DNA from: an uncultured Bacteroidales bacterium
Lineage (GTDB): Bacteria > Bacteroidota > Bacteroidia > Bacteroidales > VadinHA17
Direction of reading: 5' to 3'
DNA: 64,000 bases
Assembly: GCA_963760915.1 (NCBI GenBank)
Contig: CAVXEU010000002.1
Span: 1,670,132 to 1,734,131 of the forward strand
Each line of letters starts with the position of its first letter. The first letter of the stretch is position 1. Both the position numbers and the translations under genes were made by a program. The notes under the pieces are model-generated. The model had not been told where the DNA came from and made no database searches. It was given only the letters and a program-made list of their open reading frames with translations. Shown in pieces: positions 57,588-61,370 of the stretch.

Positions 57588-58751
57588 TTACACTTTTTCA
57601 AACATCCGTAATATTTCATTCAGAATGAATTCGGCAGTTTTTCCATCACCATAGAACCGGGGATATCTCAACAATTTCGTTGAATCGAGATAATATAAAA
57701 ACTCATTTCGTATAAGTTCCGGATCCGCATCTACAAGCCTTGCCGTACCATTTTTTACCAGTTCGACCCACTCAGTCTCCTTCCTCAGGACGATACATGG
57801 CTTATTAAAAAAATGCGATTCTTTCTGAACTCCCCCAGAGTCAGTAATGATTAAACGGCAATTCTTCTCAAGAAGTATCATTTCAAGAAATGATACAGGT
57901 GGAATAATTTTAATGCGCTCAGAATATGAAAGTTCTCGAAATAGCCCCTGAAGACTGGTTTTCAGAGATCTGATAGTTCTCGGATGAAAAGGCATAACAA
58001 ATACAATGCCATTCTCTTCCGCCAGATTTTTCAGAGTAATAAGTATCTCCTTAAGCCTTTCAATGTTATCGGTATTTGTATCTCTGTGAATTGTGACAAG
58101 TATATAGTTATTTCTTTCCAGAGAAAGCTTTTGAAGAAAATCAGTCTTAGTTTTTTCGGCAAGTTCCGCAAAGAACAGAGTATTGTCATACATTATATCC
58201 CCAGTGAAATAGATCTTTGGATTATTGATGGTATATGGCGGACTGTTCTCAGGTCTGAACCCTTCGTTAATAAGGTTCTTAAAGGCAGCATTTGTAGGTG
58301 CAAAAAGCAAAGTTGAAGAATGATCACTAATGATCCTGTTAAGTTCTTCAGGCATTGCTTTATTGAATGACCTCATGCCGGCTTCAATATGGATTACCGG
58401 GAAATGAAGTTTTGCAGCAGCCAGAGCTCCTGCAAGAGTTGAATTTGTGTCACCATAAAGCAAAACACAATCAGGCTTTTCTTTAAGAAGAATCTCTTCA
58501 ATACCTGTAATCATCATGGATGTTTGCCGGCCATGACCGGATGATCCCACACCGAGATTATAATGTGGCTTATGAATTTCAAGTTCGTCAAAAAACACTC
58601 CGGAGAGCTCTTTATCATAATGCTGTCCTGTATGAACAATTATTTCAGAGATATCCTTTGCAAAATGATTACGAATAGACCTGCTTATTGCAGAAGCCTT
58701 AATGATTTGTGGTCTGGCACCCACAATATTTAGTAGTTTGATCAAAGACAT
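57588..58751 (-). CDS. wecB: UDP-N-acetylglucosamine 2-epimerase (non-hydrolysing)
   Basis: VGARPQIIKA, HTGQHYD, VLLYGDTNSTLAGALAA, HIEAGMRS and TDSGGVQKE. The track start at 58778 is a TTG overlapping a promoter box, so the ATG at 58751 was used. Confidence 0.9.
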   Translation of the reverse strand: MSLIKLLNIVGARPQIIKASAISRSIRNHFAKDISEIIVHTGQHYDKELSGVFFDELEIHKPHYNLGVGSSGHGRQTSMMITGIEEILLKEKPDCVLLYGDTNSTLAGALAAAKLHFPVIHIEAGMRSFNKAMPEELNRIISDHSSTLLFAPTNAAFKNLINEGFRPENSPPYTINNPKIYFTGDIMYDNTLFFAELAEKTKTDFLQKLSLERNNYILVTIHRDTNTDNIERLKEILITLKNLAEENGIVFVMPFHPRTIRSLKTSLQGLFRELSYSERIKIIPPVSFLEMILLEKNCRLIITDSGGVQKESHFFNKPCIVLRKETEWVELVKNGTARLVDADPELIRNEFLYYLDSTKLLRYPRFYGDGKTAEFILNEILRMFEKV

Positions 58752-58775
58752 TGAAGGTTGAAATTTATCAGGCTC

Positions 58776-58783
58776 CAAATATA
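58776..58783 (-). promoter_or_regulatory. Bacteroidota -7 promoter box TATATTTG at the head of the glycan region
   Basis: The plus strand reads CAAATATA. On the minus strand this lies 24 nt upstream of the wecB ATG and just downstream of the rny terminator. Confidence 0.45.
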
Positions 58784-58864: not shown

Positions 58865-60427
58865 TTATTTCGCGAAATTGACTGCCCGTGTCTCACGGAT
58901 AACGGTAATTTTTATTTGTCCTGGATAGGTCATCTCGTTCTGGATCTTTCTTGCAATTTCAAATGAAAGACCCTCTGCTTCCTTATCTGTAACTTTTTCA
59001 GCACCCACAATCACGCGGAGTTCCCTCCCTGCCTGAATTGCATAAGTCTTCATTACACCGGGGTACTGAAGCGCTAACGATTCCAGTTCCTTCAGTCTTT
59101 TAATATAAGATTCCACCACTTCACGTCTTGCACCTGGCCTGGCACCTGAAATAGCATCGCATACCTGAACAATGGGTGCTATCAGAGTTGTCATTTCAGT
59201 TTCATCATGATGAGAACCTATTGCATTGCAAATTTCTGGTTTCTCTTTGAATTTTTCAGCCAGTTTCATTCCAAGTATTGCATGTGGCAATTCCGGCTCA
59301 TCGTCGGGTACTTTGCCTATGTCATGAAGAAGTCCGGCTCTTTTTGCAAGTTTTGGATTCAGACCAAGCTCTGCCGCCATAATAGCACAAAGATTTGCTA
59401 CTTCTCTCGAGTGCATCAGAAGGTTTTGACCATATGATGATCTATATTTCATTTTACCGATTAACCTTATAAGCTCAGGGTGCAAACCATGAATACCAAG
59501 ATCTATTGTAGTTCTTTTTCCTACCTCGAGTATTTCCTCTTCTACCTGCTTCCTTGTCTTTTCAACCATCTCTTCAATCCTTGCAGGATGGATTCTGCCG
59601 TCAGTAACAAGCTGATGCAGAGCAAGTCTGGCAACCTCCCTTCTGACCGGATCAAATGCTGACAGAACGATAGCTTCAGGTGTATCATCCACAATAATTT
59701 CTACACCGGTCGCTGCTTCCAAAGCCCTGATATTACGGCCTTCCCTACCAATTATCCGTCCTTTCATTTCATCAGATTCTATATGGAATACTGTTACTGC
59801 ATTTTCAATTGCGTTTTCAGCTGCCACTCTTTGAATCGTTTGAACCACAATCCTTTTCGCCTCTTTGTTTGCCGTCATCTTGGCTTCATCGAGAATTTCG
59901 TTAATATATGACATAGCATCTGTTTTTGCCTCCTCTTTCAAAGATTCTATCAGATGGTTCTTAGCTTCTTCTGCAGAAAAGCCTGAAATAGATTCAAGCT
60001 GGTCGACCTGCTGCTTATGCAGCCGGGCAACTTCTTCAGATTTTTTCTCAACAAGTTCAAGCTGTGAAGTAAGGTTTTCCTTTATGGCTTCAGCTTCATT
60101 CTTCTTGCGCTGTGTCTCCTCTAGTTTTTGAGAGAGAGAGAGTTCTTTCTGTTTAATCCTGCTCTCTGCCTGTCCAATCCTGCTATTCTTCTCATTTATT
60201 ACCTTTTCATGTTCAGTTTTCAGTTGAAGAAATCTTTCTTTTGCCTGTAGAATCTTTTCCTTTCTGATCACTTCAGCTTCAGCTTCAGCTTCACTTACAA
60301 TCTTCAGCCGTCTGTTTTTCAGTGCAATCTGCCATACAAGGTATGAAGCACCGAAACCAATAACGAGCGCTGATAAACAAGAAACGATCAGCAATCCGTT
60401 AGTTAATGGTCCTATTATTAAAGTCAT
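58865..60427 (-). CDS. rny: ribonuclease Y
   Basis: N-terminal TM helix, a long coiled coil, a KH domain ([15 protein letters not shown]) and an HD domain (HSREVANL...LLHDIGK). Confidence 0.95.
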
Positions 60428-60457
60428 TATTTATCCAATTTTTAGTATATATATAAT

Positions 60458-60657
60458 AAAAAACCCGCAAAGTTCCTCCAGCTTTTATAAAACCCCATGT
60501 CTGAATGGCTGGAGCTACTAACACAGTTTGAACTTCCACTGTTCCGCCTTTCGGCGGAAGCCCGACGAATCGGGATGAGGCCTGTTCTAGTTGAATTAAG
60601 GTTGCTCCAAAGTTTTAACTGTTGAGTTTCAAAAATGAATGAAGAAACAATGCGGGC
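60458..60657 (-). ncRNA. candidate structured RNA of about 200 nt, 6S (SsrS)-like rod with paired 5' and 3' ends
   Basis: All on the minus strand. 5' GCCCGCAUUGUUUC pairs with 3' GGAACUUUGCGGGU, followed by a U6 run. There is an internal 10 bp helix, CAGUUAAAACUU/AAGUUCAAACUG. Two adjacent hairpins carry UUCG and GAAA tetraloops (CCCGAUUCGUCGGG, CCGCCGAAAGGCGG). A 3'-side hairpin CUCCAGC...GCUGGAG faces an unpaired U-rich 5' strand. The candidate lies directly downstream of zapA, as ssrS does in E. coli. Confidence 0.45.
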
Positions 60658-60687
60658 AATTTAAGTTATCTATTTTAAAGAACGCAG

Positions 60688-60981
60688 TTACTCTTTTATA
60701 TCAAGAACCGAATCAATTTTCTGTATCAGTTCTTTTAAGGCATCAGGGAGGTAGTCTTTTTCAAGTTTTTCCTCTTCTTCTGTGAGTTTTATCACATATT
60801 GCAGGGAAGCCATTGCCAGAAAATCCTGGACATCCTTATCTGTGTACCGCTGCTTGTATTGCAGCACCTTCTCATTAATCATCCTGGCAGCTTTCCTGAT
60901 CTTCTCCTCATTTTCCCTTTCCACCTTCAATGGATAATATCTGTCAGCTACATTAACTCTGATCGAAAGCTTATCATCCAT
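60688..60981 (-). CDS. zapA: cell division protein ZapA
   Basis: LSIRVNVADRYYPLKVERENEEKIRKAARMINEKV matches the ZapA core. 97 aa. Confidence 0.8.
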   Translation of the reverse strand: MDDKLSIRVNVADRYYPLKVERENEEKIRKAARMINEKVLQYKQRYTDKDVQDFLAMASLQYVIKLTEEEEKLEKDYLPDALKELIQKIDSVLDIKE

Positions 60982-60990
60982 TGTTATATT

Positions 60991-61284
60991 TTATCTGTTT
61001 AAAAGAGCAACACATCTGTCAATTTCCCGCACAAGTTCTGTAATCTTCCTCTTTGCTTCAAAGGCATTTTCGCCTTCTCCCAACAATGCTCCTGATAATT
61101 TAACTCTATCGTAATTTAGTTCCAGTTCATTTATTCTTACATCCCGCTCATGAATACTTACTTTTAACTCTTCATTCACGTTTTTGACGGCTTCCAGTTC
61201 ATTCTTCAACTCATTATACCGATTTAACAATTCATCCAGTTTTCTGTTCAATACTATTAATTCCTCGTAACCCTGACCGGACAT
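60991..61284 (-). CDS. small coiled-coil protein (ZapB-like position upstream of zapA)
   Basis: 97 aa with heptad-rich sequence (LNRKLDELLNRYNELKNELEAVKNVNEELK) and no other motif. Confidence 0.4.
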   Translation of the reverse strand: MSGQGYEELIVLNRKLDELLNRYNELKNELEAVKNVNEELKVSIHERDVRINELELNYDRVKLSGALLGEGENAFEAKRKITELVREIDRCVALLNR

Positions 61285-61300
61285 AGTAAAATCTTTACTA

Positions 61301-61308
61301 CAAAATTA
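61301..61308 (-). promoter_or_regulatory. Bacteroidota -7 promoter box TAATTTTG
   Basis: The plus strand reads CAAAATTA, 17 nt upstream of the ATG at 61284 on the minus strand. Confidence 0.4.
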
Positions 61309-61370
61309 ACATTGTTAATGATATTTTCAAAAAATTGAGCGAAATAGTTTGGTCGGTTGTACCAGAAGTA

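What the first reader, a model, noticed from the sequence alone, without database searches (positions are those of the whole stretch)
60458..60657. A candidate 6S-like RNA lies between zapA and rny
The 260 nt zapA-rny spacer folds convincingly on the minus strand. The two termini pair over 7+5 bp and are followed by a U6 run. A 10 bp internal helix encloses two adjacent hairpins capped by UUCG and GAAA tetraloops, which are the stable forms only on this strand. A 3'-side hairpin faces an unpaired U-rich 5' strand, like the central bubble of 6S RNA. In E. coli, ssrS lies immediately downstream of zapA, so the synteny fits. No promoter box precedes either this element or rny. That suggests co-transcription with zapA followed by processing, and rny itself would then be expressed from the same transcript.
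Basis: partly seen in the sequence, partly recalled or inferred. Interest (0 to 1): 0.6.

Follow-up and report, generated by a model that had tools for sequence, protein, structure and literature searches.

The report
Bacteroidales 6S RNA gene, boxA-led
The gap between the cell-division gene zapA and the RNase Y gene holds this bacterium's 6S RNA, the small RNA that mimics an open promoter to hold back RNA polymerase; it is an ordinary member of a known Bacteroidota family that standard databases miss, and it is preceded by a ribosomal-RNA-type boxA antitermination signal.

Summary
Window 60457-60659 (minus strand) encodes a structured RNA of about 200 nt. Across 55 homologues, 42 of 54 base pairs show compensatory changes. 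The supported fold is a long rod: three closing helices, a 13/13-nt central bubble, three inner helices and a forked tip.

The RNA is single-copy in 115 of 151 sampled genomes of the order, and it always sits in the order small ORF-zapA-RNA-rny. No Rfam model reaches threshold on this sequence. My covariance model nevertheless lands on the same coordinates as weak or strong hits of 6S-Flavo (RF01685) and Bacteroidales-1 (RF01693). RF01693 covers the Bacteroides thetaiotaomicron 6S RNA, which has been shown to be expressed and to give product RNAs. The two forms are complementary across genomes.

So this is the lineage's 6S RNA: a new member of a known kind.

One extra point: no promoter lies between zapA and rny. 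Instead, a near-invariant GTTCTTT(G/A)AAA motif follows the zapA stop. It is identical to this order's rRNA-leader boxA, which suggests Nus-factor-protected co-transcription.

The parts
60457..60659 (-). 6S RNA gene (match to model R1, 203 nt; the RNA proper is about 60657-60458)
   Evidence: R1 scores 219 bits, E=5.5e-43, and this is the only hit in the genome. Covariation.
60651..60657 (-). P1 5' arm, GCCCGCA. It pairs with 60463-60469.
   Evidence: CG/GC pairs nearly invariant in 55 sequences, 97% of cells paired.
60458..60469 (-). P1 3' arm UGCGGGU plus the U6 run (60463-60458). A terminator-like 3' end formed by a long-range helix.
   Evidence: UGCGGGUUUUUU is conserved in all 55 homologues. 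B. theta 6S ends the same way.
60640..60648 (-). P2 5' arm, GUUUCUUCA. It pairs with 60472-60480.
   Evidence: All 8 pairs show changes on both sides.
60624..60631 (-). P3 5' arm, UGAAACUC. It pairs with 60488-60495 (GGGUUUUA).
   Evidence: 97.5% of cells paired. The outer two pairs covary; the inner pairs are sequence-invariant.
60611..60623 (-). Central bubble, 5' strand AACAGUUAAAACU. The predicted product-RNA template starts at C 60621.
   Evidence: AAACUCAACA is invariant across orders. C39 aligns with B. theta orphan TSS 512957 inside BTnc017. This step is inference.
60496..60508 (-). Central bubble, 3' strand CCAUUCAGACAUG
   Evidence: Unpaired in the consensus. CAUGU-like sequence is conserved. 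The local CCAU/AUGG hairpin is genus-specific.
60604..60610 (-). P4 5' arm, UUGGAGC. It pairs with 60509-60515.
   Evidence: 6 of 7 pairs show changes on both sides.
60591..60599 (-). P5 5' arm. It pairs with 60518-60526.
   Evidence: 8 of 9 pairs show changes on both sides.
60530..60587 (-). P6 (GAAC/GUUC plus CC/GG) enclosing the forked tip: UUCG hairpin 60574-60561 and GAAA hairpin 60559-60542
   Evidence: All pairs of both hairpins covary. AGGCC and CAGUGGAAGUUCGA are conserved in the junction.
60673..60684 (-). boxA-like element C-GTTCTTTAAAA, 3 nt after the zapA stop and 24 nt before the RNA
   Evidence: Perfect match to GYTCTTTAANA (PMC5725501). Present within one mismatch in 54 of 55 homologous loci. 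Same motif in the rRNA leaders of own genome and of 21 of 30 relatives.
60688..60981 (-). zapA
   Evidence: Pfam ZapA E=1.4e-16.
60991..61284 (-). 97-aa coiled-coil ORF, always upstream of zapA
   Evidence: Found by tblastn next to zapA in nearly all loci.
61301..61331 (-). Likely operon promoter: TTTG (61331-61328), 19 nt, then TAATTTTG (61308-61301)
   Evidence: One of only two exact TAnnTTTG boxes on this strand between 58700 and 61500; the other lies after rny. A box at the same relative place in 35 of 37 relatives.
58865..60427 (-). rny (RNase Y). It starts 30 nt after the U-run, with no promoter box of its own.
   Evidence: Pfam RNase_Y_N, KH and HD.

Best explanation
This is the organism's 6S RNA (ssrS equivalent). 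It is the Bacteroidales orthologue of 6S-Flavo, kept in the ancestral slot between zapA and rny.

Shown here:
- A single-copy RNA of about 200 nt.
- A covariation-supported fold of closing stem, central bubble and inner stem.
- Sequence-invariant bubble flanks.
- Model-level homology to the 6S RNA of Bacteroides.

Inferred:
- The RNA binds the sigma-A RNA polymerase holoenzyme as an open-promoter mimic and holds it back, typically in stationary phase.
- On outgrowth the polymerase copies a short product RNA from the 5' bubble strand. I predict it starts opposite C 60621 and reads 5'-GUUGAGUUUCAAAAA. This unzips P3 and releases the enzyme.
- The gene has no promoter of its own. It is transcribed from the promoter upstream of the small ORF and zapA.
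- The boxA right after the zapA stop recruits NusB/S10, and with them the Nus complex. That would let polymerase cross the untranslated 6S stretch without Rho termination.
- P1 plus U6 defines the 3' end, and read-through feeds rny.
- The 5' end is made by processing.
For: Structure: 42 of 54 pairs with changes on both sides, 93-96% of cells paired, 0 of 500 shuffles as good. Strand: forward 219 bits, reverse 44 bits.

Distribution: 115 of 151 genomes of the order have a hit, nearly all with exactly one full-length copy. In the sample of 201 genomes of the class, 46 have a hit, 44 of them outside the order.

Synteny:
- 29 of the 30 best loci in the order show zapA-RNA-rny; the other shows the small ORF and rny only.
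- 13 of 19 in other orders show all three flanking genes, and 17 of 19 at least two.
- All 6 6S-Flavo loci show it.

Links to known 6S families:
- R1 hits the Bacteroides 6S locus full-length in 8 of 8 loci, with no other hit up to E=10. The two of those loci that I scanned score 179 bits on RF01693, which Rfam describes as '6S-Bacteroidales RNA suggested'.
- Weak RF01693 hits fall on the coordinates of strong R1 hits, and weak R1 hits on those of strong RF01693 hits.
- RF01685 hits lie inside R1 hits.
- R1 and RF01693 together cover 137 of 151 genomes.

B. theta BTnc017 is expressed and gives product RNAs (PMC7366714).

The own genome has no other 6S candidate.
Against: No Rfam 6S-type model reaches its threshold on this sequence, and none appears even at E<=10. 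The link is therefore transitive, through intermediate homologues.

R1 scores on Bacteroides 6S are low: 24-27 bits, E of about 3e-4 to 1e-3 per 64 kb.

As far as I found, 6S function in Bacteroidota rests on expression and product RNAs in one species, not on polymerase binding.

The tip is forked into two hairpins, unlike the single terminal loop of E. coli 6S.
Confidence: 0.9

Rival explanations
1. It is a cis-acting leader or attenuator of rny. The structure gates read-through into, or processing of, the RNase Y message and has no action in trans.
For: It sits 30 nt upstream of rny. rny has no promoter box of its own. The P1+U6 end looks like a terminator. The link to rny is conserved across orders. 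Genomes that moved the RNA elsewhere keep a short hairpin plus U-run before rny.
Against: Homologues detached from rny sit after rplT with their own TAnnTTTG promoter. They keep the same fold and conserved bubble sequence, and in B. theta they give product RNAs. A 200-nt rod with invariant bubble sequence is far more than a terminator needs. The two roles are not exclusive: the 3' end may also gate rny.
Confidence: 0.05
2. It is a conserved structured small RNA of another function, for example a protein sponge or a scaffold. It shares ancestry and shape with 6S-Flavo and Bacteroidales-1 but does not act on RNA polymerase.
For: I found no polymerase-binding evidence for any Bacteroidota 6S-type RNA. 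Bacteroidetes sigma-A and its promoters differ from sigma-70 (PMC7366714). No clear mimic of the TAnnTTTG box is visible in the bubble (my reading).
Against: The product RNAs reported in B. theta need RNA-templated synthesis by polymerase. The orphan TSS 512957 falls in the 5' bubble strand, exactly where 6S RNAs template product RNA. Single copy and housekeeping-like spread fit 6S.
Confidence: 0.04
3. It is only the zapA terminator, or chance complementarity in an AT-rich spacer.
For: A U6 run follows a GC-rich helix. The folding z-score is similar on both strands.
Against: The spacer DNA is 79-92% identical across the genus. There are 572 compensated cells. A calibrated model finds one copy per genome across a whole class.
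Confidence: 0.01

Closest known systems
6S-Flavo RNA (Rfam RF01685; Weinberg et al. 2010, PMC2864571)
   Same: Same slot: small ORF-zapA-boxA-RNA-rny. Same invariant ACUCAACA bubble sequence. Same closing stem followed by a U-run. RF01685 hits lie inside R1 hits.
   Different: RF01685 models only the inner 108 nt and scores nothing on this sequence. The tip here is forked into two hairpins. P1 reads CCCGCA/UGCGGG, where Flavobacterium-type RNAs read CUACAUUA/UAAUGUAG.
Bacteroidales-1 RNA (Rfam RF01693), which covers the 6S RNA BTnc017 of Bacteroides thetaiotaomicron (Ryan et al. 2020, PMC7366714)
   Same: Same order of bacteria. Same overall fold and conserved blocks: GAAACUC..CA, GGCC-hairpin-hairpin-GUGGA, GUUU, GCGG followed by a U-run. 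The two models cross-hit at the same coordinates. Their distributions are complementary, with one copy per genome.
   Different: The Bacteroides type is about 180 nt. It lies after thrS-infC-rpmI-rplT, has its own TAnnTTTG promoter and has no boxA. The RNA here is about 200 nt, sits between zapA and rny, has no own promoter and follows a boxA. The RF01693 gathering score is not reached.
E. coli 6S RNA (ssrS, Rfam RF00013) in the zapA-ssrS-ygfA locus
   Same: It lies immediately downstream of zapA. It is a rod with a central bubble. It is processed from longer transcripts and co-transcribed with the downstream gene (established knowledge).
   Different: There is no detectable sequence similarity; RF00013 finds nothing in this genome. 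The downstream gene is rny, not ygfA. E. coli ssrS has its own promoters, and I know of no boxA there.
rRNA-leader boxA / Nus-factor antitermination (E. coli rrn boxA GCUCUUUAACAA, PMC2724277; consensus GYTCTTTAANA, PMC5725501)
   Same: The motif after zapA, GTTCTTTAAAA, fits the consensus exactly. It equals the GTTCTTTGAAAA found 88-154 nt upstream of 16S in this order. It lies in transcribed, untranslated RNA ahead of a structured stable RNA whose two ends pair over a long range.
   Different: The target is a 6S RNA embedded in a protein-coding operon, not rRNA. Binding of NusB/S10 was not tested.

Membership tests
6S RNA (functional class) | Single-copy RNA of about 160-200 nt | tested here: met
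   203-nt model match, the only hit in the genome. One copy in nearly all of the 115 positive genomes out of 151.
6S RNA (functional class) | Rod of closing stem, large central bubble and inner stem, supported by covariation | tested here: met
   P1-P3, a 13/13-nt bubble, then P4-P6 and the tip. 42 of 54 pairs show changes on both sides, and 0 of 500 shuffles do as well.
6S RNA (functional class) | Product RNA templated from the 5' strand of the bubble | not testable with these tools
   Inference only. The invariant C39 (60621) aligns with B. theta orphan TSS 512957 inside BTnc017. The strand of that TSS is not given in the file held.
6S RNA (functional class) | Abundant, stable transcript that binds the housekeeping RNA polymerase holoenzyme | not testable with these tools
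Rfam 6S (RF00013) | Score at or above the gathering threshold of 46.4 bits | tested here: not met
   No hit in the window or the genome, even at E<=10. RF00013 also misses the control B. thetaiotaomicron, which has a 6S RNA.
6S-Flavo (RF01685) | Score at or above the gathering threshold of 85 bits | tested here: not met
   No hit on this element. Only 1 of 201 genomes of the class reaches the threshold, so the model is narrow.
6S-Flavo (RF01685) | Same locus and shared core with accepted members | tested here: met
   The top RF01685 loci lie in small ORF-zapA-boxA-RNA-rny. Six RF01685 hits fall inside R1 hits.
Bacteroidales-1 (RF01693) | Score at or above the gathering threshold of 60 bits | tested here: not met
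   No hit in the own genome. Close relatives of the element, such as the G034 copy that is in the seed alignment, give sub-threshold hits at the same coordinates.
Bacteroidales-1 (RF01693) | Own Bacteroidetes promoter and a position downstream of rplT | tested here: not met
   There is no TAnnTTTG box between zapA and rny. The locus is zapA-rny. Bacteroides loci have both features.
boxA (Nus-factor site) | Match to the boxA consensus and to the same lineage's rRNA-leader boxA | tested here: met
   GTTCTTTAAAA fits GYTCTTTAANA (PMC5725501). The own rRNA leader has GTTCTTTGAAA, and 21 of 30 rRNA leaders in the order have GTTCTTT downstream of promoters. The motif is conserved in 54 of 55 loci.
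boxA (Nus-factor site) | Binds NusB/S10 and changes termination | not testable with these tools
   No assay is available.

The most novel reading that the evidence does not exclude
Across Bacteroidia the 6S RNA is not a free-standing gene. It is an operon-embedded stable RNA placed under an rRNA-type boxA. The Nus antitermination complex is loaded right after the zapA stop. It shields the 6S stretch from Rho, helps the 5' and 3' ends meet to form the long-range P1 helix, and sets how much transcription continues into the RNase Y gene.

This would make 6S RNA a non-ribosomal, non-coding target of Nus factors. It would also couple levels of the polymerase regulator to those of a cell-division protein and the main decay-initiating RNase.

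Lineages that gave 6S its own promoter after rplT lost the boxA. They kept only a stem plus U-run remnant in the old slot.
Probability: 0.45. Interest if true: 0.55.

Novelty: new member of a known kind. Interest (0 to 1): 0.35.

Why it matters
For annotation: most of the order Bacteroidales, and much of the class Bacteroidia, carries a 6S RNA that Rfam thresholds do not call. In my sample of the order, 115 of 151 genomes hit model R1, against 24 over the RF01693 cut-off. One model built here bridges 6S-Flavo and Bacteroidales-1 and could merge them into one clan.

For biology: the locus shows that zapA-6S linkage is ancient and shared with E. coli. It shows that the Bacteroides arrangement (after rplT, with its own promoter) is derived. 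It also shows that the ancestral gene is led by a boxA identical to the rRNA-leader boxA. If that boxA works, Nus factors would have a stable-RNA target outside rRNA. Baniulyte et al. (PMC5725501) say that their boxA search did not consider non-coding RNAs.

Tried and rejected
- **Rfam scans.** I scanned the whole window at gathering thresholds and the spacer at E<=10. Nothing relevant appeared; the six weak hits were a snoRNA, a lncRNA, a miRNA and the like, which is noise.
- **RF00013 and RF01685 on the whole genome.** They gave nothing, or E=2.25 at an unrelated place.
- **Folding energy as a strand test.** It was uninformative: z = -3.2 against -3.5.
- **CGTTCTTT motif as a promoter.** Rejected. 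It lacks the TA of TAnnTTTG, its distance to the RNA varies from 16 to 103 nt, and in the rRNA and tRNA-Thr leaders it lies downstream of canonical promoters.
- **CGTTCTTT motif as an alternative partner of the P2 3' arm.** It can pair in this genome. Rejected, because P2 covaries while the motif is invariant.
- **CGTTCTTT motif as a genome-wide repeat or regulator site.** It is not enriched: 139 copies against about 299 for permuted 8-mers.
- **The 3'-bubble hairpin CCAU/AUGG.** It is not conserved outside the genus.
- **A mimic of the TAnnTTTG box in the bubble.** I found no consistent one.
- **A promoter for rny inside the 3' half of the RNA (GAACTTTG).** It is not conserved in other families.
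- **Wehner et al. 2014 (PMC4615782)**, which predicted Bacteroidetes 6S RNAs, is not held.

Full report
**What is there.** The 260-nt spacer lies between zapA (60688-60981, minus strand; Pfam ZapA E=1.4e-16) and rny (58865-60427, minus strand; RNase_Y_N, KH and HD domains). It has no ORF of 50 aa or more.
- GCCCGCA pairs with UGCGGGU, and six U follow.
- A second closing helix follows the first.
- An inner helix, UUGGAGC/GCUCCAG, encloses the tip.
- The tip carries two adjacent hairpins with UUCG and GAAA loops.

The minimum free energy of the spacer is -70.3 kcal/mol (z = -3.2). The other strand folds about as well (z = -3.5), so energy neither proves the element nor fixes the strand.

**Is it more than chance?** Yes.
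- The spacer DNA is 79-92% identical in 23 of 24 genomes of the same genus, and about 70% identical in several other families.
- An alignment of 25 copies gives an RNAalifold consensus of 54 pairs, 26 of them with changes on both sides.
- Counted on that structure, 95.8% of cells pair. None of 500 shuffles reaches any of the five measures. Sliding the partners by 1-3 columns drops pairing to 35-54%.
- I built a covariance model, R1, from this alignment.
- Aligning 55 homologues from about 50 families and several orders to R1 raises the count to 42 of 54 pairs and 572 compensated cells, again with 0 of 500 shuffles as good. That alignment is fitted to the model, so it leans towards the structure. 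The first alignment was not fitted and gives the same answer.
- Invariant G-U pairs, and 219 bits forward against 44 bits reverse, place the RNA on the minus strand.

**Anatomy.**
- P1: 60657-60651 with 60469-60463.
- P2: 60648-60640 with 60480-60472.
- P3: 60631-60624 with 60495-60488.
- Internal loop of 13 nt (60623-60611, AACAGUUAAAACU) against 13 nt (60508-60496).
- P4: 60610-60604 with 60515-60509.
- P5: 60599-60591 with 60526-60518.
- P6, then a fork of two hairpins.

This is the closing stem, central bubble and inner stem layout of 6S RNA. The consensus-compatible fold of this sequence (-68.3 kcal/mol) is as good as its unconstrained optimum (-67.8).

Sequence, not only pairing, is invariant at these places:
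- CCCGCA...UGCGGGUUUUUU
- AAACUCAACA
- AGGCC
- CAGUGGAAGUUCGA
- GGGGUUU

**Database tests.** No Rfam family reaches its threshold in the window. At E<=10 on the spacer only noise appears. RF00013 finds nothing in the whole genome. RF01685 finds only E=2.25 at an unrelated place. RF00013 also fails to ring in the control genome of Bacteroides thetaiotaomicron. That species has a 6S RNA, BTnc017, that was detected by dRNA-seq together with product RNAs (PMC7366714). So a missing Rfam hit is not evidence against a 6S RNA in this phylum.

**Distribution of the element.**
- R1 finds a full-length match in 115 of 151 sampled genomes of the order (E from 1e-10 to 1e-43), nearly always exactly one.
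- In a sample of 201 genomes of the class, 46 have a match, 44 of them outside the order.
- Of the 30 best loci in the order, 29 lie in the arrangement 97-aa ORF, zapA, RNA, rny; the remaining one shows the 97-aa ORF and rny but no zapA hit.
- Of 19 loci in other orders, 13 show all three flanking genes and 17 at least two.

**Link to known 6S RNAs.**
- A 32-nt pattern from BTnc017 fetched 21 named Bacteroides loci.
- In the locus I read, the RNA lies after thrS-infC-rpmI-rplT.
- The two loci I scanned score 179 bits on RF01693. Rfam describes that family as 'Bacteroidales-1 6S-Bacteroidales RNA suggested'.
- R1 aligns full-length to exactly that RNA in 8 of 8 loci tested (24-27 bits, E of 3e-4 to 1e-3 per 64 kb), with no other hit up to E=10.

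Over the same 151 genomes RF01693 passes its cut-off in 24, mostly genomes that lack an R1 hit.
- Its sub-threshold hits fall on the very coordinates of strong R1 hits (G034, G063, G092, G101, G112, G130, G155).
- The weak R1 hits in G025, G041 and G115 fall on strong RF01693 hits.
- Together the two models cover 137 of 151 genomes, one copy each.

RF01685 behaves the same way across the class. Six of its hits lie inside R1 hits. Its top loci sit in the same ORF-zapA-RNA-rny slot. Weinberg et al. counted 6S-Flavo as an expansion of 6S RNA (PMC2864571).

The element is therefore the Bacteroidales orthologue of 6S-Flavo and a sister form of Bacteroidales-1. The family is known, but this branch of it is not called by current models.

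**History of the locus.** Genomes with the RF01693-type RNA keep the cluster 97-aa ORF-zapA-rny, although zapA itself was too diverged to detect in three of the ten. Their spacer holds only a hairpin of 50-70 nt plus a U-run, and the stem of that hairpin resembles P1 (CCGCAC...GUGCGG). One genome (L089) looks like an internally deleted 6S gene. Other orders have the zapA-rny form. The simplest reading is that this form is ancestral and that the copy after rplT, with its own promoter, is derived.

**How it is expressed (inferred).**
- Bacteroides-type 6S genes carry a canonical TAnnTTTG box 15-20 nt upstream. B. theta has a primary start at 512917 and a processing site at 512925.
- Here, two exact TAnnTTTG boxes lie on the minus strand between 58700 and 61500. 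One is at 61308-61301, upstream of the 97-aa ORF, with TTTG 19 nt before it. The other is at 58783, after rny.
- 35 of 37 relatives have a box at the same relative place before the small ORF. 23 of 37 have none between zapA and rny.
- rny starts only 30 nt after the U-run.

This fits one transcription unit: ORF-zapA-6S-rny. The 5' end of 6S would be processed, and there would be partial read-through at P1+U6.

**The boxA.** Three nucleotides after the zapA stop the sequence reads C-GTTCTTTAAAA (60684-60673).
- The core GTTCTTT is present within one mismatch in 54 of 55 loci. By my count it is exact in at least 47: the script scored 45, and two more that it marked approximate contain an exact copy. 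Its distance to the RNA varies from 16 to 103 nt.
- It fits the gamma-proteobacterial boxA consensus GYTCTTTAANA exactly (PMC5725501; E. coli GCUCUUUAACAA, PMC2724277).
- The same motif, AAGTTCTTTGAAAA, lies 88-154 nt upstream of 16S, downstream of TAnnTTTG promoters, in this genome and in 21 of 30 rRNA leaders of the order.
- It also sits in the leader of a tRNA-Thr gene.
- It is not a common word in the genome.
- It is absent from all ten zapA-rny spacers that lost the 6S gene, and from the promoter-driven Bacteroides 6S genes that I inspected.

I read it as a boxA that loads Nus factors after translation of zapA ends, so that polymerase can cross the untranslated 6S stretch. Whether it also helps the long-range P1 helix form, or promotes read-through into rny, is open. 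No paper in the held library combines boxA, 6S RNA and antitermination. That is not proof of novelty.

**Product RNA (inferred).** The source data of Ryan et al. list an orphan start site at 512957, inside BTnc017. That is C34 of CUCUUC|AAAU, which aligns with C39 of CUCAAC|AGUU here, window 60621. If that site is the product-RNA start, the product here would begin 5'-GUUGAGUUUCAAAAA. It would invade P3, as in other 6S RNAs. The strand of that start site is not given in the file held.

**Verdict.** The element is a new member of a known kind and is useful for annotation. The conserved boxA and the operon-embedded arrangement are the only parts that go beyond the ordinary. Notes from earlier agents of this scan on other genomes reached the same 6S reading for look-alike spacers. 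I treated them as leads only.

Noticed in passing
window 60673-60684 (-): A boxA-like element, C-GTTCTTTAAAA, lies directly after the zapA stop. It is identical to the order's rRNA-leader boxA and conserved in 54 of 55 homologous loci at a variable distance from the 6S gene.
   Followed up: yes
L089-L098 (zapA-rny spacers of genomes with the RF01693-type 6S): The old 6S slot keeps a hairpin of 50-70 nt plus a U-run, with a P1-like stem (CCGCAC...GUGCGG). L089 (G053) looks like an internally deleted 6S gene: CCCGCATTATTT..GTTTGAAACTTTTCAGCCATTGG..TTATGCGGTTTT. These spacers have no boxA.
   Followed up: partly
window 60991-61284 (-): A 97-aa coiled-coil ORF (only a weak Pfam IFT57 hit, below threshold) lies upstream of zapA in nearly every locus examined across Bacteroidia. 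It may be a ZapB-like partner. The operon's only canonical promoter precedes it.
   Followed up: partly
genome contig C2:859837-859924 (outside the window): The tRNA-Thr gene has a TACATTTG promoter, then CGTTCTTTAAATT 13 nt before the mature 5' end. Three other tRNA genes have one-mismatch copies 12-21 nt upstream. boxA-like leaders may be general for stable RNAs here.
   Followed up: partly
genome contig C1, 16S-23S spacer region (outside the window): The string TTCAACTCCCAACGTTTTTTGATAGGTAATTAAG recurs at least six times with a 105-nt period downstream of 16S. This is either a tandem array of a tRNA end plus a spacer boxA-like motif, or an assembly artefact.
   Followed up: no
G121:C12:81636-81805: One genome of the order has a second, diverged R1 match of 170 nt (53 bits, E=6.6e-8) besides its zapA-rny copy. 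It may be a 6S paralogue.
   Followed up: no
window 58776-58783 (-): An exact TATATTTG box lies right after the rny terminator and ahead of the wecB-like gene (57588-58778). This is the same box that an earlier first-stage reader noted (e1-3247364).
   Followed up: no
L041, L042, L050, L052, L054, L061: In six homologues the loop between P2 and P3 reads TAnnTTTG on the sense strand, 8-10 nt before AAACUCAACA. That is a promoter-like word inside the 6S RNA next to the predicted product-RNA start. Its meaning is unknown and it may be chance.
   Followed up: no
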